NCBI RefSeq assembly: GCF_963921235.1
Contig: NC_086097.1
Coordinates: 18,106,001 to 18,170,000 of the forward strand
Reading direction: 5' to 3'
Length of the DNA: 64,000 nucleotides
Origin: Mobula hypostoma
Lineage: Eukaryota
In this document: in pieces, positions 26,253 through 40,682 of the stretch
How positions within the stretch are numbered: position 1 is the first letter of the stretch
Layout of the letters: each line of letters starts with the position of its first letter
Position numbers and translations under genes: made by a program
Notes under the pieces: generated by a model
The model's input: the letters and a program-made list of their open reading frames with translations, nothing else
Told to the model about the DNA's origin: nothing
Database searches by the model: none

Positions 26253-29200
26253 CACGGTGTGATCGTGGAGGAGGAGCGAGGGGCTCAGGAGAGCGCTGAG
26301 TGCTGGGAAGTAGCTGAGGAGCTGAGGTGAGTGTACTTTAAAAGGAGCGTGGAGGGCAACTGAAGGGTTAAACAGAATGTTGATTAGTCGATTAGAGGAT
26401 TAGTTGAGTACTTGAGATAACTGGCAGGGACAAATAAAAGCAGGGGTAACTGAAGAGGAGTGGCCAGGTTGAGTTGGGAGTTGGCTTGACTGGAAGCTGG
26501 TTGTGTTTTGCTTGATGTGTGAGTGTGTTTTGGAACCTGTGGAGGGAAAGAGAGTGGGGAAGGAATGGAAATTGCTGGGAGGGGTTTGTGTGGGTCTGGT
26601 AATGGTGGACAAGATAAGAGGTGGGATTGAGGGAAAGAAAGTGGAAAAGGAGAGGGATAGAGACTTGGGACCAGAGGTAGGCAGCTGGGGAGAGGTGGAT
26701 TATTGTGAAGGGAAAAATAAAGGGAATGAGGAGGTAGTGAGGGGTTGGATGAATAAAAACCAAGACAAAGGGAATAAAAGAATAAGAAATGATAGTGGAG
26801 AAAGCTCTGAAAGTGAGGAAGATGAACAAGCTCAGAGAGGAGGTGTTGTCATAATTAGGTTTAATGAGAAGGCTCAGGGACATATGAAGAAAATTAACCC
26901 ATTTGTGCTAACAACAACTCTGACAAATAAGATAGGAGAAATAGTATTTGCAAAAGTCCTTTGATGGCAACTTATTGGTAAGATGTGTGAATGAGGAACA
27001 ACTTGAGAAAGCACTCAAGCTAAAAGAGATAGGAAAATGCAAGGTGGAATACACTGGGAGGGTGGGAGCACAAAACAGTTGTTGTAAAGGAGTGATCATG
27101 GGGATACCAATGAGTATAAATATGGAGGAGATAAAGAGGAATATCAAAGGAGGGAAAGTAATGAATGTTCAAAGACTGAAAACAACAAAGGAGGGAGTGA
27201 AAAAGGAAAGTGAATCAGTATTGATTGAATTTGAAGAAGAAAGAGTGCCAAGGAAGGTGTTCCTGGGTTTCATGAGTTACCCAGTAAGGGTGTATGTGCC
27301 AAAGCCACTGAGGTGCTATAATTGTCAAAGGTTTGGACACGTGGCTAAAAACTGTAAAAGGCAGAGGAGATGTGCTAGATGTGGGGGTGATCATGAATGT
27401 GGAAAGTGCGGGACAGGAGTTCAACCAAAATGCTGCAATTGTGGAGGAGCTCATAATGTTGCATATAGTGGGTGTGAGGTTGTGAGACGGGAGACTAAAA
27501 TTCAAGAAATAAGAGTGAAAAGAAAGATCACTTATGCAGAAGCTGTAAGAATGTCAAGAGAACAGAATAATGTTCCTAATGAACAGGGAGCAATAGGGAT
27601 ACAAGAGATGCAACAAAGAACAAATGACAGGATTTATGTAGACAAAAAGGCTCTAGTAACATTCATTGCAGGAGTGATTAATAGTACGGCTGAGGTAAAG
27701 TCAAAAAGTGACAAAATTCAGCTGGTGGTAAAAGCAGCAGTAAACCATTTAGGGTTAGTAGGACTGACATGGGAGGAAGTGAGGGAGAATCTCAGTAATC
27801 AGTCAAGCCAGGAAGTGTCATGTGTTGGTTAATACTAATTATGGTGATTCTTTTACAATGGAATGCAAGGAGCTTACTGGCCAATAGCCAGGAATTCAAG
27901 CACTTTATTAAAGAAATGGTTGTAAAACCGGATGTAGTGTGTATTCAGGAAACTTGGTTGAAACCAACTTTAGACTTTGTGGTATATGGGTATACAATGA
28001 TAAGGAAAGATAGAAATCTAGGGAGAGGAGGGGGTTGTGCTATGTTAATCAAGCAAGGTATACCATATAGGGTACTGGAGAAAGGAGATGATCAGGAATA
28101 CATAGTGGAAGTGTGGGAGAGAGGGGAGGGAGTGGTTATAATTAACTACTACAATCCATGTAAAAGGTTGGATTTGGACAGCCTATTAAAGATACAAGGA
28201 CAAAACAGACATAAAGTAGTGTGGTGTGCAGATTTCAGTGCTCATAGCACAATATGGGGGGGATCAGATTACAGATCCAAATGGAAAGGTAATTGAAGAT
28301 TTGATGGAAGAAAGGGATTTGGTGTGTATGAATGATGGTAGCGGCACAAGGATAGATATAACAACAGGAACTGAGTCAGTGTTAGATATTATGTTAGTGT
28401 CTAATACCTTGGCTGGCATTAGTAACTGGGGAGTTTGGACTGCTTCAACAGTAGGCAGTGATCACTACCCAGTTTTATGTTCAGTGGGTGAAAGAGTTGA
28501 AGTAAGACCAGGTGGCGGAACCCCAAAGTGGGTGTTTGAAAAAGCTGATTGGGGTAAGTTCCAGAAGTTGAGTGAAGAAGGGTTGACAAAGATTGATATT
28601 TCTGGAAATGTAGATGAATTAAACAGTCAGGTGACTTCAGCAATTATCATGGCAGCAGAAGGATCTATACCTAGGAGTAAAAATAGGATGAATAGAAAAC
28701 TGGTACCATGGTGGACAGAGGAATGTTGTCAGGCTGTAAAAAAACAGAAATAGAGCATTCAGGCTAGTTAAAAGAACCCATAATATGCAACATTTGGTTC
28801 AATATAAGAAAGCACAGGCAGTGGTGAGAAGAACTATACGTCAAGCTAAAAGGGCAAGTTGGAGGAGTTTTTGCGACAAGGTGGGAAGAACAACACCTGT
28901 GGGAGAGATGTGGGGAATGATTAAGAGGATGGGAGGAGATAAAAGGGAATAGGAATATCCAGTAATGATATCTGAGGAGGAAACTGCAGTCTCCAGTAGG
29001 GATAAGGCTGAGGTCATGGCCAAGTCATTTGTACTGATACACAGTTCAGAAAATCTGTCTGAAGAAGGGAGAAGGAGAAGGGAAAGAATAATGAGCCAAC
29101 ACCCAGGTGTATTAAACAGGAGGGAAGGAACAGATGATATAATTGATGATCCGTTTACATTAGCAGAAATGGCGAGAGCAATAAAGAGATTGAGACCAAC

Positions 29201-31740
29201 CTCCCCAGGGAAAGATCTGATATGCTCTGTGATGCTAAAAAATCTAGGAGAAGGAGCGCTCTTGAAGTTGCTGCATTTTTATAACAGAGTGTGGGAGGAG
29301 GGAAGATTACCAAGTGCATGGAAAGAAGCAGTAGTAATTCCAATAAGGAAGCCTGGCAAGGATCCGTCAAAACCCACTAGCTACAGACCAATTGCATTAA
29401 CATCAAGTATATGTAAGATAATGGAAAGGATGATAACAGAAAGGTTATCATATGAGCTTGAGAAAAGGGGAATGCTGGCAAGTTATCAGAGTGGTTTTAG
29501 AAAGGGAAGGAATTCCATGGACTCAGTGATTATGTTAGAGACTGAAATAATGAAGGCCCAGGCAAATAGAGAGTCAGTAGTGGCAGTGTTCTTTGACATT
29601 GAAAAAGCCTATGATATGATGTGGAAGGAAGGATTATTAATTAAACTGCACAAGATGGGGGTTGGTGGGAGAGTTTTTAATTGGATTAAAGATTTTTTGT
29701 CTGGTAGAAAAATTCAAGTTCGGATTGGATCAGAATTATCAAAACAGTACATAGTGGAAAATGGCACACCTCAAGGTAGTGTGATTAGCCCGTTACTTTT
29801 CATCATTATGATCAATGATGTCTTCACAAAGGTACCAGTGGATATAGGTAGGTCACTGTTTGCGGATGATGGGGCCTTGTGGAAAAGAGGCAGGAACATG
29901 GACCATATAATCAGGAAACTACAAGAAGCAATTGATGAAGTGGTGGAGTGGGGTTATGATTGGGGATGTAGATTTTCAGTAGAAAAAACTCAAACTGTAT
30001 TTTTTACTAGGAAAAGAGTTGAGGTAGGGAAGAAGTTAAGGATGTATGGGGTTGAATTAGAAAGGGTTGCATCATTTAAATTTCTGGGAGTTGTATTTGA
30101 TTCATGATTAACATGGGCAGACCATATCAGGAAAGTTGAGGAGAAATGTAAAGTAATAAATGTGATGAGATGTTTGACTGGTAGGGAATGGGGAGCAAGT
30201 TGTTCAGCATTGAAGAGAATATATGTGGCTTTAGTGAGATCTGTTGGACTATGGAAATATAGCACATGGATCAGCAGCTAGGTCTCTTATAAGGAAACTG
30301 GATGTGATTCAGGCTCAGGCCTTGAGAGTGTGCAGTGGGGCTTTTAAAACGTCACCAGTGTCAGCCCTACAGGTAGAAATGAGAATAATGCCTTTGGAAC
30401 TAAGAAGGATGCAACTGATGGCAAACTACTGGGCTAACTTGCAGGGGCATAATGATTCTCACCCTGCTAAAGGAGTGTTGCAGGAGTGCTGGGAAAATGG
30501 GAGGTTTCAGAGGGATACTTTTAGTCAGGTAGGGAATGATATCGCGAAAGAATGTGGAGTGTTTGATCTAAGGATAAGTCCTTCAGTAGTTTATCTGGTT
30601 GTAGCTCCATGGAAGCTTGTATGGCCTGACATAGACTGGCATTTGTTAGAGGTAAAAAGGAAGGGAAGATATAAAACAGATTTGGTAAATGCATTTAACT
30701 GCCATGTGATGGAAAAGTACAGGGTTTGGGATGGTTATTCCAGCAAAAGAAATTGGAATCAGCAGAAGAACATCTAATAAGTTAGGGGTGTTTACAGTGG
30801 AGATGCTGGCAGTGTTGGTTGCGTTGCAATGGGTGCAGAAAGCCAGACAAGTCAAAGCATTGATATGTTCAGATTCATCCTCAGTTCTAGCAAGTTTAAG
30901 GCCTTTTCACACAAACAGTCGGCAAGATGTACTTTATGAAGTCCTTCAGTTAGTTACAAGAATTGCAAATCAGGGAGGTCAGGTAAAATTTCTATGGGTT
31001 CCAGCACATGTAGGGGTGAAGGGGAATGAGAGGGTGGATGAGTTGGCAAAGAGGGTATTAAAGAAAGAGAATGTAGAAATGCACATTAGTATCAGTAAAG
31101 CAGAGGTTAAGTGTGTAATCTGGGAAATAGTCAACCGAATGTGGCAAGAAAGATGGGACAGGGAGGGAAAAGGGAGGCATTTATATCAAATACAAAAAAG
31201 TGTTGCAGGTACAAGAGTAGGTAATGGAAACAGAAGAGAGGAAACTGTGTGGACTAGGTTAAGGCTGGGGCATTGTGCATTAAACAAAACATTGAAAATG
31301 GTAGGGAAACACCAGACAGGATTGTGTGAGGAATGTCAGGAAGAGGAGTCAGTAGAACATGTAGTTTTGTGTTGCAGGAAGTATGGGATACAGAGAGAGA
31401 TGATGAGAATTAAACTAAGGGAGTTGGGGGTGTAGGAATTCATATTAAAAGGGTTGCTGGGCATGGGTGAGAGAGCACAGGTCCGGGTATTTTTAGTGTT
31501 CTTAAGGGGTACAGGGGTTTTTTATAGGATATGAAGGATAAACAGGAATAGGATACTAGGATGGTCAAAGATGGGAGGGTAAAGTGTAGGGGTGTATGTG
31601 TGTGTGTGTGCGCGTGCGTGAGCGAGATTGGGTGAAGGGATTTAGATTATATGTCTAGTGCACATTCCGGAGCAGAGGGTGGCGGTAATGCACCATTAAG
31701 CTGGATGCCGACCACCGTAAAACAAGAAAGACAGACAGAC
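26253..31740 (+). mobile_element. Near full-length I-group (Nimb-like) LINE: ORF1 with three Cys/His knuckles; ORF2 APE-RT-RNase H-CCHC; frameshifted
   Basis: CYNCQRFGHVAKNC (26948-27832); ILLQWNARSL and GSDHYP (APE); LFADDGA (28965-30107); ICSDS...WVPAHVGVKGNERVD (RNase H, 30731-31435); 3' stem-loop 31678-31716 and purine tail. Confidence 0.9.
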
Positions 31741-31755
31741 AGAGGAGTGGCCAGT

Positions 31756-34700
31756 TCTACTGGATTATGTGACTGTGGTAGTTCAGAGACAGTCCAGCGT
31801 GTTTTGTTGAGCTGTAATCGATACAAAATTGAAAGAAGCATGTTGTTCAAGAGGCTATATGGCTTAAATTTATTTTGGTTTTCTAAATAGTAGTCTGGAT
31901 GTAGGGTGTAAGTTGAATCAAGAGTTAAAATTGGCATGTAGCGAAGGTAATGCTACAGTTGTTATGGGGGATTTCAACATGCAGGTAGACTGGAGGAATC
32001 AGGTTGGTGCTGGACCCCAAGAAAGGGAGTTTGTGGCGTCCCTCCGAGATGGATTCTTAGAACAGCTTGTACTGGAGCCTACCAGAGAGAATGCAATTCT
32101 AGATTTAGTGTTGTGCAATGAACTGGATTTGATCAGGGACCTTGAGGTAAAGGAGCCATTAGGAGGTGGTGACCATAATATGATGAGCTTTAATCTACAA
32201 TTTGAGAGGGAGAAGGGAAACTTGGAAGTGTCAGTATTACAGTTTAACAAAGGGAACTATGGTGCTATGAGGGAGGAGCTGGCCAAAGTTCAATGGAACA
32301 ATACCCTAGCAGGGATGACAGTGGAACAGCAATGGCAAATGTTTCTGGGAATAATGCGGAAGGTGCAGGATCAGTTCGTTCCAAAGAGGAAGAAAGATTC
32401 TAAGGGGAGTAAGGGGAGGCCATGGCTGACAAGGGAAGTAATGGACAGTATAAAAATAAAAGAGAAGTAGTATAACATAGCAAAGATGAGTGGGAAGCCG
32501 GAGGATTGGGAAACTTTTAAAGAGCAACAGAAGGTAACTAAAAAGGCAATATGCGGAGAAAAAATGAGGTACAAGGGTAAACTAGCCAAGAATATAAAGG
32601 AGGATAGTAAAAGCTTCTTTAGGTATGTGAAAAGGAAAAAAATAGTTAAGACCAAAATTGGCCCCTTGAAGACAAACGGGTGAATTTATTATGGGGAATA
32701 AGGAAATGGCAGACGAATTGAACAGGTACTTTGGATCTGTCTTCACTAGGGAAGACACAAACAATCTCCCAGATATAAGAGTGGCCAAAGGACCTAGGGT
32801 AATGGATGAACTGAAGGAAATTTATATTAGGCAGGAAATGGTGTTGGATAGACTGTTGGGTCTGAAGGCTGATAAGTTCCCGGGACCTGATGGTCTGCAT
32901 CCCAGGGTACTTAAGGAGGTGGCTTTAGAAATCGTGGACGCATTGGTAATCATTTTCCAATGTTCTATAGATTCAGGATCAGTTCCTGTGGATTGGAGGG
33001 TGGTTAATGTTGTCCCTCTCTTCAAGAAGGGAGGAAGAGAGAAAAAGGAACTATAGACCGGTTAGCCTGATGCCGGTGGTGGGAAAGATGCTGGAGTCAA
33101 TTATAAAAGATGAAATTACGACACATCTGGATAGCAGTAACAGGATTGGTCCAAGTCAGCATAGATTTACGAAGGGGAAATCGTGCTTGACTAATCTGGA
33201 ATTTTTTGAGGATGTAACTCTGAAAATGGACAAGGGAGAGCCAGTGGATGTAGTGTACCTGGACTTTCAGAAAGCCTTTGATAAAGTCCCACATAGGAGA
33301 TTAGTGGGCAAAATTAGGGCACATGGTATTGGAGGCAGAGTACTGACATGGATTGAAAATTGGCTGGCTGACAGAAAACAAAGAGTAGCGATTAACGAGT
33401 CCCTTTCGGAATGGCAGGCGGTGACCAGTGGGGTACCGCAGGGTTCAGTGCTGGGACCGCAGCTGTTTTCAATATACATTAATAATTTAGATGAGGGAAT
33501 TAAAAGTAACATTAGCAAATTTGCCGATGACACAAAGCTGGGTGGCAGTGTGAAAAGTGGTGAAATGTGAGGAGGATGTTATGAGAATGCAGGGTGACTT
33601 GGACAGGCTGGGTGAGTGGGAAGATGCATGGCAGATGCAGTTTAATGTGGATAAATGTGAGGTTATCCACTTTGGTGGTAAGAACAGGAAGGCAGATTAT
33701 TATCTAAATGGAGTCAGGTTAAGAAAATGGGAAGTACAATGAGATCTAAGTGTTCTTGTACATCAGTCACTGAAAACAAGCATGCAAGTACAGCAGGCTG
33801 TGAAGAAAGCTAATGGCATGCTGGCCTTCATAACAAGGGGAATTGAGTATAAGAGTAAAGAGGTCCTTCTGCAGCTGTACAGGGCCCTGGTGAGACCACA
33901 CCTGGAGTACTGTGTGCAGTTTTGGTCTCCAAATTTGAGGAAGGACATTCTTGCTATTGAGGGAGTGCAGCTTAGGTTCACAAAGTTAATTCCTGGGATG
34001 GCGGGACTGTCATATGTTGAAAGATTGGAGCGACTGGGCTTGTATACTTTGGAATTTAGAAGGCTGAGAGAGGATCTTATTGAAACATAAGATTATTAAG
34101 GGATTGGACACGCTGGAGGCAGGAAGCATGTTCCCGCTGATGGGTGAGTCCAGAACCAGAGGCCACAGTTTAAGAATAAGGGGTAGGCCATTTAGAACGG
34201 AGTTGAGGAAAAACTTTTTCACCCAGAGAGTGGTGGATATATGGAATGCTCTGCCCCAGAAGGCTGTGGAGGCCAAGTCTCTGGATGCTTTCAAGAAAGA
34301 GATGGATAGAGCTCTTAAAGATAGCGGAATCAAAGGTTATGGGGATAAGGCAGGAACTGGATACTGATTGTGGATGATCAGCCATGATCACAGTGAATGG
34401 TGGTGCTGGCTCGAAGGGCTGAATGGCCTATTCCTGCACCTATTGTCTATTTAAATCTTTGTTTGGCCAGGAAGAGAATCAACATCTGATTGAAGAGTAT
34501 TATTCAGATTATATGTGAGACTAGGTTGTATTTGAGAATTTGAGTTCCTTGAAGTTCTATAATCAATTATACATCCTGTGGAGGGTTGGGTGTTGGGCCA
34601 GACTGCCATTTGGGGCCATTGATTGAGTGGGTGGGGACTTTGGTGTGGAGGAGCCTAGTAGTTTGGAAAGGGTTAGTTTGTAGCCTATGGCTGCAAAAGG

Positions 34701-37700
34701 GAGAGGGGGGGTTGAGATTGAAGGAGGAGGGTGGGAGACTGGAATACTCCAGAAGTAAGGGTAGCCAAAAAAGGGGTGCATCAAGTGAAAGATCTGAAGT
34801 AATGGGGGACAACAAATTGAGGAAAATGGGTGAATTGGAGGAATTTATAGTTCTGTATAAAATTAAAGGTCAGAAGGAAGGGGAAGGAGGATTTAGAGCC
34901 CTTAATCCTTTGACAGTGGCAGCAGCATCAGAGAACCAAATAGGTAAAGGATTCCAGGCCAAGGTTTTGTCTACTGGATTGCTGAAAATTTGTTGCAAAG
35001 ATATTGACCAATATAACAGTGCTAAAATGGTGGGAAAATTGGTTGTGAAAGTGGAGTGTATTACTCTGAAAGAAAGGAAGGGAATTAAGGGGGTAGTGTA
35101 TGGTATTTGGTCTGGCATGACTGAAAAGGAAATTTTGGACAATATTGAAGGTGGTTGAGTGATTGAAGCCAAATGATTAAAATTGAGAGAAGGTGGTAAT
35201 TGGGATTCTCCTGTTCTTCTGGTTTTTGCAGGTGATGTTCTTCCAACTAGAGTCTATCTTGGGTGCATGTATTATCAAGTTAGAGAATACATAAAGCCTC
35301 CCTTACGCTGCTATGATTGCCAGACATTTGGACATGTTGCTGGTTCATGTCGAGGTAAAAGAAGATGTATGAAATGTGGAGAGGATCATGATATTAAAGC
35401 ATGTAAAGCAGCGGTGCCTAAATGCAATAACTGTGGAGGGGACCATATAGTGGCATTCAGAGGATGTGAGTATTTTAGTAAGGCAAAGCAGACTCAGGAT
35501 GTTAGTATCCAGCAAAAAATATCATATGCTGAGGCAGTAAAGAAAGTTGATAGAGAGCAAAGGATAAGTAAAGAAAAGATTGGAATGATGGGGAGTCAGT
35601 TCATTCTGAGTTCTCCAACTATGGTTCCTTCAGGCATGTTGATGACTAAAGAGTCTTTTTTTGGCGTTTATTGTTGATGTACTGGTCGGGGCTAAAACTA
35701 CAGCTAAGAGGTCGGATATGATAAAAGTAGTTGTTGGAGCTGCAGAGAGATTCCTTGATATAAAACAGATTTTGCCGGAAAAATTACATGAGTATCTGAC
35801 AGGCAAACAATCACTGAGTACTTCCCAGTTGTCAGGATCAGAGAGTACGGAGGAACTTTATGTGGATGAAGAGGCCAATAATTAGTATTTGGATGTCTTT
35901 AATATTACAATGGAATGCAAGAGGTTTATCTGCAAATGGTCAAGAATTAAAAAGATTTGTTGGAACTTTTAAAGACAAGCCTGATTTGATCTGTATACAG
36001 GAGACATGGTTAAAGCCTCATTTAGATTTTGTGATCCCCGGATATGATAGTTTGAGAGCTCACAGAATGGGTAAATCTGGTGGAGGGTGTGCAACTTTCA
36101 TAAAAACAGGACTCCAGTTTAGAAGACTTGATTTTAAATCTAACCTTGAAATTGTGGCTGTGAAGGTTTGGAGCTCTTGTGGTCGAATAACTTTGATTAA
36201 CTTTTATAATCCAAGTAATATGATGTTATCAGATTTAGATGAAATTATGAATAAAGTAAGATCCCCAGTAATCTGGGTTGGAGATTTCAATGCCCATAAT
36301 CCTATATGGGGTAGTGAAAGTAAAGATAGTAATGGAGTGGTAGTAGAGGAGTTTCTAGATAAATACAAAATGGTACTGCTAAATGATGTAAGGCCTACAA
36401 GGTTTAATATTATAAAGAATAATTGTAGTCATTTAGACTTATCTATCACTTCCTCAAACTTAGCTAGCGTTGGGGAATGGGATGTTATGGACAGATGCAC
36501 GCTAGGAAGTGATCACTATCTTATATTATGTAGATTTGGTAGAAACTTGATAGTAGAAGTTGAGGAGAGGTCTGCTAGGTATAATTTTTTTTTAGCCCAT
36601 TGGGATGAGTACCAGGAGAAAGCTGTGGATATAATAGAAGAGATTAATAGCGAGGGCTCTATAGATGATTGGAATGAATCCCTCTGTTCTATAATTCATA
36701 AAGTTGCTCAGTTGACGATTCTGCTACGGAATGTTCCTAAGGCTCGAGCACTAGTTCCATGGTGGAATAAAAATTGTGATATAGCAGTAAGAAACTGAAA
36801 TAGAGCTTACAGAACATTAAGAAAGTACCCAGTGTTAGATAATGTTATGGAGTATAAACAGGAAAGAGCAGTAGCAAGGAGAGTAATTAAAAATGCAAAG
36901 AGGGATAGTTGGAGAAGATTTTGTGGAGCCCTGAGACACCTATAAAGCAGCTATGGACGATCATTCACAGAATGTCAGGGATATATAGGAAACCATTTAT
37001 CCCAGCTTTGCTGGAAGGAGATATTGAAGCTGTAACCAATAAGGAAAAGGTTGATATGTTTGTAGAGGTGTTCCAAGCGTTACACAGTTCTGGAGAGTTA
37101 GGTGATTTGAGAAAGGAAATTATGTTAAAGGAAAGTTGGAAATTGGACAGGAGTTTGGATGATAATAGCTCCATAAATTTGTTTTTCTCCCTTCAGGAAT
37201 TGCAGGAAGCCGTCCAATCAGGTTCAAACAGCTCTGGTAGGGATGGACTGTGTTATGAATTGCTTAAGCATTTAGATGACTCTGTATTAATAGAAATTCT
37301 AGCGTTGTTTAATTCAGTGTGGAAAGAAGGAAAATTACCAGTAGACTGGAAGCATGCGGTGGTAGTTCCAGCTTTAAAGCCAGGTAAGGATGCGTCTAGT
37401 CCTAGCTCGTATCGACCTATAGCTTTAACGTCAGTGCTTTGTAAAATTATGGAACGAATGGTCACCAACAGACTTGTTTATTTTTTGGAAAATAAGGGAC
37501 ATTTTGCTGCCTATCATAATTGTTTTAGAACTGGAAGACCAACAATGGAATCTGTTGCCCTTTTAGATCATGATATTAATGAAGTGTTTCAAAATAGAGA
37601 AGTAATGGTAAGTGTATTTCTAGATACTGAAAGAGCATATGACTCACCATGGAAGGATGGCTTATTAATTAAACTCTATGATGTGGGAATTAGAGGTAGA

Positions 37701-39775
37701 AAGTTTAATTGGATCAAAGATTTCCTTAAGGAAAGGACAATTCAAGTAAGAATAGGCGGAATAAGCTCCAAGTCAGTTAAAATAGGTAATGGTACTGCTC
37801 AAGGAAGTGTCATTAGTACAGTTCTTTTTAATGTCATGATAAATGATATCTTTGATCAGGTAGGGACAGGATTTGGTAAATCATTGTTTGCAGACGATGG
37901 TGCAATCTGGAAAGGAGGAAGAAACATCAAGTATATATTAAGTCAGGTACAAAAGGCTTTTTAAGATCAGTTAAAAACTGGGCTAATAAATGGGGTTTCA
38001 GGATTTCTGCTTCTAAGTCCAAATATGATTTTTGGCTTTAGAAGAAAGATTCCTGATTGTGAATTGTCTATGTGATTCTCCACTAGAAAAAGTCAAGGTA
38101 TTCAAGTTTTTAGGTGTCTGGTTTGATGAAAGACTTACTTGGAGGGTTCATATAGATAAAACAATTGGAAAGTGTGAGAAAGTTTTAAATATTATGAGAA
38201 GTATTGTTGGATGCGACTGTGGAGCAGGGTGGGAAACTTTGTACTTAATATGTCTAGCTATGATTAGATCAGTTATAGATTATGGTTGTATTGCTTATGG
38301 TTCTGCTGCTACGGCAGTGCTTGGAAAACTAGACACTGTGCAGTCCAAAGCACTTAGACTCTGTTGCAGAGCTTTTAGAACAGTATCAGCCCCGGCATTA
38401 TGTGTGGAGATGGGAGAAGTTCCTCTGCATTTAAGACGAATTCAGTTGGGCCTGCAGTATTGGGCAAAACTAAATGGATTCAGTAACAGCTGTCCACCAA
38501 AGTGTCTTTTGCAGGGGAAGTTGGAGCGCCAAGGTAAAATTAAGATACCCATTTTTAGATTGGGTTAATAACTGGGCTGTGAAATTGAAACTGACTGAGG
38601 AAGACATAGTTGACCAAATTTGCTTGCCACCTGTCCCTTTTTGGCTTTTTCTAGAACCAGAAGTAGACCTATTCCTCCTTTTTCAGCTTCAAGGAAACAG
38701 TGCAATTTCATCAGCGTTGATCACAAATGAATATTTAAATAATAAATGAGGATCTTATCTGAAGATTTTTACTGATGGCTCAGTGGACCCAGAGAGCAGT
38801 AGGGCAGGATTTGGGATGTACGTGTCTCAACTTGGAGTTAAGATTGGTCACTGGGCTTCAGATGGTGTTTCTGTCTTTGCAACAGAATTATTAGCAATCC
38901 TCTGGGCCTTGTGGTGGATAGAAGACTCTCGACCATGTAGGGTTATCATCTGTTCGGATTCTGCTGCTGTCTTAGAGGCTATAAAAGGGAGTAAATCAAA
39001 ATCTTGTCCTGACATAGTTATTGAGATTCTCTTAGTATTGTTTAGAGTAGGGAAGATGGGTTGTGCAGTTAGATTTTCATGGATACCTGGGCATGCTGGG
39101 GTGGAGGGAAATGAAATTGTGGATGGCATTGCAAAATCTTCCTTGCAGAGCGGGCAGGTAGAAATTAGAGTTCCCCTAGGCAGAGCAGAATTGAGAAGTA
39201 AGATTAAAAAAAGTATAGAGAAGAAGTGGCAGGAGGATTGGAAGAATGAATTAAGGGGCAGGCATTATTTTTCTAGTCACCCACTAGTTAAAAAGGTCTC
39301 AGACTGTTACCTTTTAAGTCGTAGAGATATGGTGAAATTTACAAGACTTAGGTTGGGGCATTGTGGGCTAAACTATTATTTAAAGATAATAGGAAAACAT
39401 CCTACTGGATTATGTGACTGTGGTAGTCCAGAAACAGTCCAACATGTTTTGCTGAGCTGTAATCGATACAAAATTGAAAGAAGCATGTTGTTCAAGAGGC
39501 TATCTGGCTTAAATTTATTTTGGTTTTCTATTAAATCTTTGGCCATCAAGAGAATCAACATCTGATTGAAGAGTCTATTATTCAGTTTATATGTGAGACT
39601 AGGTTGTATTTGAGAATTTGAGTTCCTTGAAGTTCTATAATTAATTATACATCCTGTGGAGGGCTGGGTGTTGGGCCAGACTGCCAGTTGGGGCCGTTGA
39701 TTGAGTGGGTGGGGACTCTGGCGTGGAGGAGCCTAGTAGTTTGGAAAGGGTTAGTTTGTAGCCTATGGAAGAAGA
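31756..39775 (+). mobile_element. Second Nimb-like LINE with ~370-bp terminal direct repeats, interrupted by CR1
   Basis: ORF1 knuckle CYDCQTFGHVAGSC (35183-35677); APE (35860-36798); RT LFADDGA (36909-37964); RNase H FTDGS...WIPGHAGVEGNEIVD (38770-39565); 15-bp TSD at 31741-31755 / 39776-39790. Confidence 0.9.
31886..34450 (+). mobile_element. CR1 LINE, 5'-truncated within the endonuclease
   Basis: VVMGDFN, ILDLVL and GGGDH (APE); RT ORFs 32691-34367; interrupts the Nimb repeat exactly at TTTTCTA|TTAAATC. Confidence 0.92.
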
Positions 39776-40682
39776 AGAGGGGTGGCCAGTGTGTGAATGG
39801 CTCAGGGTACGAGTGGAGCATTGAGGCTTTGGCGAGCAGAGGTTGCGGACGAGCTTGCTCCCAGTGAGGTAAGGCTGGGTAAGTACCTTTAATTAATTTA
39901 ATTAACTTAGGAGTAGGTAATGGAGGCAGCAGTTAGGGCGGCTGAGTGCTCCATATGCAGGATGTGGAAAGTCAGGGACAGCACAATTGGCCTGATGACT
40001 ACACCTGTAAAAGGTGCATCCAGCTGCATCTCCTAACAAACCGATTTGGGGGAACAGGAGCTGGAGCTGGATGAAGTTTGGATCATTCATGAGGCAGAAA
40101 TAGACAGGAGTTTCAGGGAGACAGTCACCCCTAAAAGTCAGAAGGCAGGTAGCTGGGTGACTGTCAGGAGAGGGAAGGGGAATAGACAGAAAGAGCAGAG
40201 CACCCCTGTGGCTGTTCCCATCAACAATAAGTATACCCTTTTGAATACAGTTGGTGGGGACAACCTACCAGGGACAAGTTGTAGTGGTCGCGTCTCTGGC
40301 ACCGAGACTGGACCCTCAGCTCAGAAGGGAAGGATGGAAAAGAGGAGAGCAGTAGTGATAGGGGATTCGATAGTTAGGGGAACAGATAAGAGGTTCTGTG
40401 GGAGAGATTGAGAATCCTGGATGGTCTGCTGCCTCCCTAGTGCCAGGGTCCGCCATATCTCGGATCGAGTTCTTGGTATTCTCAGGAGGGCGGGTGAGCA
40501 GCCAGATGTTGTGGTCTACGTAGGGACCAATGACGTGGATAGGAAGGAGGAGGAGGTCCTGCAAAGAGTTTAGGGAGTTAGCTGAAAAGTTGAAGGACAA
40601 GACCTCCAGGGTTGCAATCTCAGGATTGCTATCAGTGCCATGTGCTAGTGAGGCTAGAAATAGGAAGATAATGCAACTAAAT

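What the first reader, a model, noticed from the sequence alone, without database searches (positions are those of the whole stretch)
31741..39790. A Nimb LINE with LTR-like terminal direct repeats made of its own 3' end fused to its 5' UTR
Seen: after removing the CR1 insertion (31886-34450), the first ~370 bp of the element (31756-31885 + 34451-34690) repeat its last ~370 bp (39401-39768). My manual alignment gives about 16 substitutions and two small indels. The repeat contains the end of ORF2 (CDCG..ETVQ.VLLSC), the 3' UTR and then the sequence leading into ORF1. It stops exactly at ...GTAGCCTATGG, the probable ORF1 start: the 5' copy continues into ORF1, the 3' copy into AAGAAGA and the TSD. 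One 15-bp TSD (AGAGGAGTGGCCAGT / AGAGGGGTGGCCAGT) brackets the whole structure, so it integrated as a single unit. I see no 3' stem-loop like that of the neighbouring Nimb (31678-31716). Established: LINEs normally lack terminal repeats; HeT-A/TART and TRE5-A are exceptions that borrow 3' promoters or carry repeats. Inference: either a lineage with terminal redundancy, reverse transcription more than once around a circularised RNA, or read-through from a head-to-tail tandem donor.
Basis: partly seen in the sequence, partly recalled or inferred. Interest (0 to 1): 0.82.

Follow-up and report, generated by a model that had tools for sequence, protein, structure and literature searches.

The report
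One-off LINE copy with terminal repeats
A single dead LINE retrotransposon copy really does carry 370-bp repeats at both ends, but the odd junction is found nowhere else in the genome, so it looks like a copying accident rather than a new kind of element.

Summary
With the CR1 insertion removed, 31756-31885 + 34451-34690 repeats 39401-39768, with 16 substitutions and two small indels. A 15-bp target-site duplication (14 of 15 identical) brackets the whole structure.

Each repeat is the last 266 bp of the element joined to 102 bp of the family's 5' UTR. Those 266 bp are the ORF2 end plus the 3' UTR up to GGGCTG. The join removes the family's normal 3' stem-loop. All 29 other 3' ends that I read continue into that stem-loop and an (AAG)n tail.

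The join (32-mer, up to 3 mismatches) and the odd 3' terminus (27-mer, up to 2 mismatches) occur only at this locus in the 3.48-Gb assembly. A lineage with LTR-like ends is therefore not supported.

Best reading: one aberrant target-primed reverse transcription made a cDNA about 1.07 units long. It did so by template switching, re-entering twice at the base of the 3' stem-loop. A covalently circular RNA template or a lost tandem donor cannot be excluded.

Interest is moderate. It is a natural footprint of serial template switching in an I/Nimb-type LINE.

In passing: the same 15-bp target was used twice (neighbour LINE, then this one, or the reverse). Also, 7 of 29 sampled copies sit at one identical site of a Tc1-like transposon.

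The parts
26454..26468 (+). Third copy of the target site (AGAGGAGTGGCCAGG), left of the neighbouring LINE
   Evidence: (1 mismatch)
26469..31740 (+). Neighbouring I/Nimb-type LINE of another family. It has its own 3' hairpin (31678-31716) and an (ACAG)n tail, and is flanked by the same 15-mer.
   Evidence: A 90.9% identical copy of its 3' part lies upstream of another family member (L057).
31741..31755 (+). Left target-site duplication, AGAGGAGTGGCCAGT
31756..31885 (+). 5' repeat, segment a, part 1 (ORF2 C-terminus, CCHC motif)
   Evidence: alignment to 39401-39530
31886..34450 (+). Later insertion of a 5'-truncated CR1-like LINE that splits the 5' repeat
Evidence: excision restores the sequence of the 3' copy.
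34451..34588 (+). 5' repeat, segment a, part 2 (ORF2 end and 3' UTR up to GGAGGGTTG)
34589..34690 (+). 5' repeat, segment b: the conserved part of the family 5' UTR up to ATGG of ORF1. Junction J1 lies at 34588/34589.
   Evidence: homology to the other copies begins at 34589 in the 5 longest, at various points further in (query positions 12-38) in the other 24.
34687..35677 (+). ORF1 region, broken into pieces. The 35267-35677 piece shows cysteine/histidine clusters that I read by eye as zinc knuckles.
35860..39565 (+). ORF2 in at least five pieces: AP-endonuclease 35860-36798, RT 36972-37964, RNase H plus C-terminal CCHC 38816-39565
39401..39666 (+). 3' repeat, segment a (ORF2 end and 3' UTR up to GGAGGGCTG)
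   Evidence: 39 of the 39 other scored copies match only up to this point.
39667..39768 (+). 3' repeat, segment b: a 5' UTR segment in place of the stem-loop. Junction J2 lies at 39666/39667.
39769..39775 (+). Short (AAG)-type tail, AAGAAGA
   Evidence: the family tail is (AAG)n; the terminus is unique.
39776..39790 (+). Right target-site duplication, AGAGGGGTGGCCAGT

Best explanation
This is the fossil of one aberrant retrotransposition event of an ordinary I/Nimb-type LINE family.

Shown: the layout is TSD - a b M a b - AAGAAGA - TSD.
- a is the last 266 nt before the 3' stem-loop.
- b is 102 nt of 5' UTR, ending at the ORF1 ATG.
- M is the body of the element.
The a|b join is identical at both ends and exists nowhere else in the genome.

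Inferred course of the event:
1. The reverse transcriptase primed at the nicked target with a short (AAG) tail.
2. Instead of entering the stem-loop, it began copying a family RNA at ...UAUGG. This was either a short 5' RNA fragment or an internal start.
3. It ran to the 5' end of the conserved 5' UTR and switched template to the base of the 3' stem-loop (GGGCUG) of a full-length RNA of the same source.
4. It copied the whole unit and switched again at the same two points.
5. It stopped 266 nt later, and the cDNA was joined to the upstream target end.

The repeated re-entry point is set by the stem-loop, which is the likely enzyme-binding or pause site. Shared GGCUG/G-rich microhomology may also contribute. 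The product is 1.07 unit lengths.

The copy lacks the 3' stem-loop, left no progeny, and has since decayed: broken ORFs, a CR1 insertion, and about 4.4% substitution divergence between the repeats.
For: 1. One TSD surrounds the whole structure, and there is no TSD, tail or stem-loop at the internal joins.

2. Canonical ends of the family. Twenty-nine of 29 other 3' ends continue from GGGCTG into TAATAYGCC... Twenty-seven of these show the full hairpin arms, and 2 (L017, L028) are cut short by the tail. All end in an (AAG)n-type tail. The hairpin folds.

3. Uniqueness in the genome:
- J 32-mer, up to 3 mismatches: 2 hits, both here.
- Two gapped anchor pairs: only this locus, plus 3 canonical tandems that keep the stem-loop and tail.
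- GGGCTG followed by anything but T: 8 exact hits, of which 7 are point variants of the stem-loop (L003).
- 3' terminus 27-mer: 1 hit.

4. Both repeat copies trace to one source sequence. All 16 substitution differences are private to one copy. Five derived states are shared, including a C in b that 0 of 29 other copies have. The GGGTGTTGGGCC form of b is found only here.

5. Initiation is loose in this family. In 6 of 29 sampled copies the tail is joined upstream of the usual point: AAACAG|GAAG in L008, L013, L022 and L029, and inside the hairpin in L017 and L028.

6. The 5' ends are breakpoint-prone. Homology among the 29 copies starts at 34589 in 5 of them, with at least two unrelated upstream leaders. 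The rest start at 34599 or further in, again with other leaders.

7. Precedent in the literature:
- MGL LINE chimeras with double template jumps inside one 14-bp TSD, with switches recurring at the same nucleotide next to hairpins (PMC2104539, abstract and section 9 read).
- R2 proteins jump from a finished cDNA to further 3' UTR RNAs and give head-to-tail repeats (PMC11371274, passages read).
Against: - It needs three switches in one event, two of them at identical donor and acceptor points.
- No other copy shows a landing at the stem-loop base, so that point is not a visible hot spot.
- Microhomology at the join is weak and ambiguous: G-rich, with the boundary uncertain by a few nt.
- No 5'-3' complementarity beyond chance was found.
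- The start at ...UAUGG is unexplained.
- The 13 versus 3 split of private substitutions between the 5' and 3' copies is not predicted.
- Nothing here separates this model from a covalently circular template.
Confidence: 0.45

Rival explanations
1. Covalently circular RNA template. A family RNA lost its stem-loop and tail and was circularised at GGGCUG|GGUGUU, by back-splicing or ligation. The enzyme, after priming on a tail, switched onto the circle at ...UAUGG and went 1.07 times round.
For: - The same junction appears twice, and the two repeat copies trace to one source. Only one novel joint is then needed.
- Canonical copies read CT|GTAATA at the donor side, a possible 5' splice site.
- Circular RNAs copied into tandem DNA are proposed for retrozymes (PMC7761336 and bioRxiv 10.64898/2026.07.22.740005, search-listing abstracts only).
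Against: - No ribozyme or other Rfam family lies in or around the element (1 chance-level hit in 13.8 kb).
- The acceptor side cannot be checked because the source leader is unknown.
- No circular RNA of an I/Nimb LINE is on record in my searches.
- A switch from a tail onto the circle is still needed.
- No sibling products with other permutation points were found.
Confidence: 0.2
2. Read-through of a tandem DNA donor. A head-to-tail array of the family lost the stem-loop, tail, TSD and leader between units, and was then amplified to at least three units. A transcript ending near the ORF1 start of the last unit was then retrotransposed.
For: - Head-to-tail arrays of this family exist. There are 3 canonical own-family tandems.
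- Three of 29 full-length copies lie directly behind another Nimb-type tail.
- GGCTG-type motifs occur at both sides of the would-be deletion.
Against: - No donor exists. The junction is found only at this locus, even allowing 3 mismatches in 32.
- All tandems found keep the stem-loop, the tail and the spacer.
- It needs several rare DNA steps and still needs an aberrant 3' end without a stem-loop.
Confidence: 0.12
3. Post-insertion DNA rearrangement of two or three ordinary insertions at the same target, by deletions, unequal exchange or conversion.
For: The same target site is demonstrably reused here, in the pattern T-X-T-Y-T. Stacked insertions are therefore a realistic starting point.
Against: - The right end would need a LINE fragment made only of 5' UTR followed by a tail, which TPRT does not produce.
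- The same breakpoint would have to arise twice.
- No TSD copy is left inside the structure.
Confidence: 0.08
4. A LINE lineage that regularly carries LTR-like terminal repeats, as the first reader proposed in its first option.
For: The structure itself. The repeat would place 3' sequence upstream of the 5' UTR, as in TART/HeT-A-type promoter borrowing (recalled, not checked here).
Against: - The junction and the terminus are unique.
- Twenty-nine of 29 other 3' ends and 29 of 29 other 5' ends are ordinary.
- The copy lacks the family's 3' stem-loop, which every other 3' end read retains at least in part.
Confidence: 0.04
5. Assembly artefact.
For: Repeats of a high-copy family can mislead assemblers. 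Read support here is thin, because the public runs are kept as short unitigs.
Against: - The two copies differ at 16 sites and 2 indels.
- One copy holds a 2.6-kb CR1 insertion.
- The TSDs sit at the exact ends.
- A unitig with 0 differences and single-copy-like depth crosses J2.
Confidence: 0.03

Closest known systems
Chimeric retrocopies made by LINE template switching (Magnaporthe MGL bi- and tripartite chimeras; mammalian U6-L1 chimeras)
   Same: Several RNA-derived parts are joined head to tail without tails between them, inside one TSD. Double switches occur. Switches recur at the same nucleotide near hairpins (PMC2104539, abstract and section 9).
   Different: Here all parts come from the LINE's own RNA, so the product is a permuted copy longer than one unit. 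The 3'-most part is a 5' UTR piece rather than the LINE's 3' end. The U6-L1 comparison is recalled, not read here.
Pseudo-LTRs of Penelope-like elements
   Same: A 5'-truncated copy abuts a full-length copy head to tail, giving terminal direct repeats (PMC8557442, passages read).
   Different: In PLEs this is a regular family trait and the enzyme carries a GIY-YIG endonuclease. Here it is a single copy of an AP-endonuclease/RT/RNase H LINE. The join deletes the 3' terminus, and a 5' UTR piece also sits at the 3' end.
R2 end-to-end template jumping
   Same: The RT jumps from a completed cDNA to another RNA and makes head-to-tail tandem products (PMC11371274, passages read; Bibillo and Eickbush work recalled).
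   Different: R2 lands on RNA 3' ends. Here the landing is ~36 nt plus the tail upstream of the 3' end. This is a different clade, and it is a genomic fossil rather than an assay.
TART / HeT-A / TRE5-A
   Different: Those are heritable family features. Here the structure is not inherited by any other copy.
Circular LINE products and retrozymes
   Same: They join the 3' end to the 5' end of a retroelement: Zorro3 DNA circles (PMC3510499, abstract and discussion read) and circular RNA retrozymes (abstracts only).
   Different: Zorro3 junctions carry the tail or target sequence, and this one carries neither. No ribozyme is found here.

Membership tests
I/Nimb-type non-LTR retrotransposon | ORF2 with AP-endonuclease, reverse transcriptase and RNase H domains in that order | tested here: met
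   Exo_endo_phos_2 3.8e-20 (35860-36798), RVT_1 1.8e-21 (36972-37964), RNase_H 1.2e-07 (38816-39565).
I/Nimb-type non-LTR retrotransposon | ORF1 with zinc knuckles | tested here: inconclusive
   the translation of 35267-35677 shows cysteine/histidine clusters that I read by eye as knuckles. Pfam gave no hit at E <= 0.01.
I/Nimb-type non-LTR retrotransposon | Microsatellite-type 3' tail, TSD, frequent 5' truncation | tested here: met
   (AAG)n tails, a 14-bp TSD in L037/L016, and copies truncated at different points.
I/Nimb-type non-LTR retrotransposon | RT phylogeny places it in the Nimb clade rather than I, Ingi, Loa or Tad1 | not testable with these tools
No reference set of clade RT sequences was available.
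LINE lineage with heritable terminal repeats | The same terminal repeat or junction in several copies with different TSDs | tested here: not met
   only this locus.
Penelope-like pseudo-LTR architecture | Partial tandem (truncated copy in front of a full copy) as a recurrent family feature | tested here: not met
   The shape is present once. The other tandems of the family keep the tail and a spacer.
Template-switch chimeric retrocopy | All parts in one orientation, joined without tails, within a single TSD | tested here: met
Template-switch chimeric retrocopy | The 3'-most part is the LINE's own 3' end with its normal terminus | tested here: not met
   The terminus is a 5' UTR piece plus AAGAAGA, with no stem-loop.
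Rolling reverse transcription of a circular RNA | A product longer than one unit with one identical junction | tested here: met
Rolling reverse transcription of a circular RNA | Existence of the circular RNA, or self-cleaving ribozymes that would make it | tested here: inconclusive
   No Rfam ribozyme. RNA data were not examined for junction reads.

The most novel reading that the evidence does not exclude
The copy records reverse transcription going more than once round a closed LINE template, either a covalent RNA circle or an RNA held end to end by the enzyme bound at the 3' stem-loop. That would be a natural one-step route from a LINE to an element with LTR-like terminal redundancy. It is the kind of event from which pseudo-LTR or LTR architectures could have started.
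Probability: 0.2. Interest if true: 0.7.

Novelty: new variant of a known kind. Interest (0 to 1): 0.4.

Why it matters
Template switching by LINE reverse transcriptases is known mostly from assays and from chimeras with foreign RNAs. A copy longer than one unit, built only from the element's own RNA with the same join at both ends inside one TSD, shows something further. In vivo, such an enzyme can re-enter its own template at a defined point next to the 3' stem-loop.

That gives a concrete and testable picture of how terminal redundancy could arise in a non-LTR element. It also flags the stem-loop base and the 5' UTR breakpoint as sites to probe biochemically. As a single dead copy it has no functional consequence for the host.

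The side observations may be the more productive lead for specialists. The family reuses target sites, and it repeatedly hits one site of a Tc1-like transposon.

Tried and rejected
I used searches and fetched stretches instead.

- Internal priming on the purine run just after the ATG (AAAAGGGAGAGGGG versus target AAGAGGGGTGG). The 3' end would then have to keep CTGCAAAAGG. The observed AAGAAGA would need a 4-nt deletion plus 3 mismatches in 11, far above the ~4% substitution divergence. Rejected.

- Long-range pairing between the 5' UTR and the 3' end as a guide for the switches. In the duplex-energy test, 259 of 300 shuffles did at least as well. Rejected.

- Ribozymes (hammerhead or HDV-like) that could define RNA ends or make circles. 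None found: the only Rfam hit in 26300-40100 was a chance-level bacterial sRNA at E = 0.19.

- A simple CAGT target motif after the tail. It occurs in 7 of 29 flanks, against 10, 2 and 4 of 29 at control offsets. Not supported.

- Stem-loop base as a general landing hot spot. The 7 other exact hits with GGGCTG followed by a non-T are all point variants of the hairpin.

- Public reads. The four runs laid are short unitigs. Apart from one unitig across J2 they say little, and parts without cover are not evidence. Whether organism B carries the junction could not be read from the truncated table.

- Earlier notes of this scan: nothing on record.

- Hairpin stability. The single-sequence folds of the family hairpin are not exceptional against shuffles (z = -1.5 and -0.85). 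Its reality rests on conservation across copies.

- Back-splice signals. A GT is available at the donor side, but the acceptor side cannot be tested.

Full report
**What is in the sequence.**
The stretch 31756-31885 + 34451-34690 repeats 39401-39768. The two copies differ by 16 substitutions, a 4-bp indel and a 2-bp indel.

The left copy starts right after AGAGGAGTGGCCAGT (31741-31755). The right copy ends at ...GTAGCCTATGG and is followed by AAGAAGA and AGAGGGGTGGCCAGT (39776-39790). The left copy instead continues into CTGCAAAAGGG. The ATG in ...CCTATGG is a reasonable ORF1 start. Twelve of the 29 other copies have the modal 117-nt spacing to the next ATG. In 7 of those 12 the frame from this ATG runs open through that second ATG.

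The body encodes an AP-endonuclease, a reverse transcriptase and an RNase H. It is broken into many ORF pieces, so the copy is dead.

**What the family normally looks like.**
The window lies in a 3.48-Gb assembly that can be searched. A search with 39401-39790 scored 40 of 762 candidates. All 39 hits other than the locus itself match only query positions 1-266, that is, up to 39666.

I read the 29 best of them. Every one continues from ...CCTGYGGAGGGCTG into TAATAYGCCTAGATGCGTCTAAACAGCC GGAAATAG and an (AAG)n-type tail. This is a hairpin with GGCTGT/ACAGCC arms. In 27 of the 29 the hairpin is complete. In 2 (L017, L028) the tail cuts into it. In 4 (L008, L013, L022, L029) the tail follows AAACAG directly.

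In our element, both repeat copies read GGGTGTTGGGCCAGAC... after GGAGGG(C/T)TG. A search with 34588-34990 scored 40 of 193 candidates. It shows that this sequence is the family's 5' UTR. Homology of the 29 other copies begins at 34589 in 5 of them and at 34599 or further in for the rest. Upstream of that point lie differing GGCTG-rich leaders. One copy with both ends in hand has a 14-bp TSD and a 54-nt private leader.

Each repeat is therefore a|b. Segment a is the last 266 nt before the stem-loop. Segment b is 102 nt of conserved 5' UTR. The whole layout is TSD - a b M a b - AAGAAGA - TSD.

**Is it a family trait?** No.
- The junction 32-mer, allowing 3 mismatches, occurs twice in the genome, both times here.
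- Two independent gapped anchor pairs, each a 3' UTR anchor followed within a few hundred nt by a 5' UTR anchor, find only this locus. They also find three ordinary head-to-tail pairs that keep the stem-loop, the tail and a spacer.
- The motif ...GGAGGGCTG followed by anything but T has 8 exact hits. The 7 others are single-base variants of the hairpin (L003).
- The terminus ...CCTATGGAAGAAGA is unique.
- The GGGTGTTGGGCC form of b is unique.
- None of the 29 other full-length 5' ends has 3' UTR sequence fused to it.

These pattern searches need near-exact anchors, and the copies I read are the best-scoring ones. Rare divergent examples could have been missed.

**Same source for both copies.**
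At every one of the 16 substitution differences, one copy carries the family-majority base and the other carries a rare or private base (13 private to the 5' copy, 3 to the 3' copy). At 5 sites both copies share a state that is a minority in the family. One of these is a C in b that none of the 29 other copies has.

This fits two copies that were identical when made and have since diverged by about 4.4% in substitutions. The 14-of-15 TSD and the later CR1 insertion fit the same picture. The 13:3 asymmetry is unexplained.

**Assembly.**
The public runs holding the stretch are kept as short unitigs, so the read test is weak. One 77-nt unitig of run X1 covers 39638-39714 without a difference. Its depth (14.6) is similar to that of the unique flanks, and it crosses the 3' junction. 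The run may come from the assembled individual. The sequence differences between the two copies and the CR1 insertion in one of them argue against a collapse or duplication artefact.

**Mechanism.**
A single TSD, no tail, stem-loop or TSD at the inner joins, and one join present twice mean a single cDNA of about 1.07 unit lengths. Every model needs an abnormal start, because the 3'-most sequence is a 5' UTR piece carrying a short family-type tail.

The family's own copies show loose initiation: the tail is joined at a non-canonical point in 6 of 29. They also show a breakpoint-prone 5' UTR.

I favour serial template switching (0.45). The steps would be:
1. A start with a short tail.
2. Copying of b from a family RNA ending or entered at ...UAUGG.
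3. Run-off at the 5' end.
4. Re-entry at the base of the 3' stem-loop of a full-length RNA.
5. A full pass.
6. The same run-off and re-entry again.
7. An abort after 266 nt.

Published precedent exists. Double jumps occur within one TSD, with switches recurring at the same nucleotide beside hairpins, in the fungal MGL LINE (PMC2104539, abstract and section 9). R2 proteins jump to further RNA molecules and give head-to-tail repeats (PMC11371274, passages).

A covalent RNA circle (0.2) explains the twofold join more economically. It lacks any support here: no ribozyme was found, the acceptor side is untestable, and there are no sibling products.

A tandem DNA donor (0.12) is made plausible by the real head-to-tail arrays of this family. 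However, no donor with the junction exists in the assembly, and all arrays seen keep their stem-loops and tails.

DNA-level rearrangement of stacked insertions (0.08) cannot produce a 5' UTR-only piece followed by a tail. A heritable lineage (0.04) and an assembly artefact (0.03) are unlikely.

**Comparison with known systems.**
The structure works like a template-switch chimera whose parts all come from the LINE itself. In shape it resembles the pseudo-LTRs of Penelope-like elements (PMC8557442, passages). It is neither a member of that class nor a family feature.

The Zorro3 circles (PMC3510499, abstract and discussion) join 3' to 5' ends through tail or target sequence, which is absent here.

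My literature searches for a LINE copy longer than one unit with terminal repeats of this kind returned no such case (template jumping/tandem, Penelope/pseudo-LTR, template switching/partial tandem, rolling-circle RT/circular RNA). One search was a separate search on the Nimb clade itself. The library lacks most subscription journals, and I read no supplements.

**Side observations.**
- The same 15-mer also flanks the neighbouring LINE of another family (26454-26468 | 26469-31740 | 31741-31755). One target site was therefore used twice.
- A second locus shows three successive elements, each followed by the same ~10-bp target copy.
- Seven of the 29 sampled 3' ends lie at the same position of the 5' region of a Tc1-like transposon. 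Six of these have a visible 5' boundary, and each is truncated at a different point, so they are independent insertions.
- Four more share a second repeated target.
- The family thus has a marked target preference, which probably explains the reuse of regenerated target copies.

**Verdict.**
The structure is a new variant of a known kind, an aberrant template-switch product. It is of moderate interest.

Noticed in passing
window 26454-26468, 31741-31755, 39776-39790; L068 (G000:C1:153502500-153511500, reverse strand): Target-site reuse. The same 15-mer flanks both the neighbouring LINE of another family and this element (pattern T-X-T-Y-T). In L068 a Nimb-type tail, an 895-bp truncated copy and a full-length copy are each followed by (A/T)TTCAGTGCT.
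   Followed up: partly
L018, L019, L021, L024, L026, L027, L029 (3' flanks and, where visible, 5' flanks): Seven of 29 sampled family copies sit at the same site of the 5' region of a Tc1-like transposon (...GGTCAAGAGGTTCAGT^TGTTGTTCAGACCAAACATCAGAATGGGG...). Six have a visible 5' boundary and each is truncated at a different point, so these are independent insertions. The Tc1 flanks are only 70-77% alike. This suggests site-preferential integration by an I/Nimb-type LINE. The Tc1 label is my reading of the flank sequence and was not tested.
   Followed up: partly
L002, L007, L020, L022: Four of 29 copies share a second repeated target (TSD about GCCTCTGGCTG, followed by a CT-rich repeat).
   Followed up: partly
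L032-L060, the 60 nt upstream of the conserved 5' UTR: The family's 5' leaders are mosaic. Homology between copies breaks at 34589 (5 of 29) or at 34599 and further in (24 of 29). Several unrelated GGCTG-rich leaders lie upstream, and some are shared by a few copies.
   Followed up: partly
L008, L013, L022, L029, L017, L028 (3' ends): The (AAG)n or (AGG)n tail is joined upstream of the usual point in 6 of 29 copies, twice inside the hairpin. Initiation of reverse transcription is therefore positionally loose in this family.
   Followed up: no
window 31756-34690 versus 39401-39768: Private substitutions are unevenly split between the repeat copies: 13 in the 5' copy and 3 in the 3' copy.
   Followed up: no
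window 39790-40000: The sequence just downstream of the right TSD looks like part of another repeat, with a short ORF start. The stacked LINEs probably sit inside an older transposable element.
   Followed up: no
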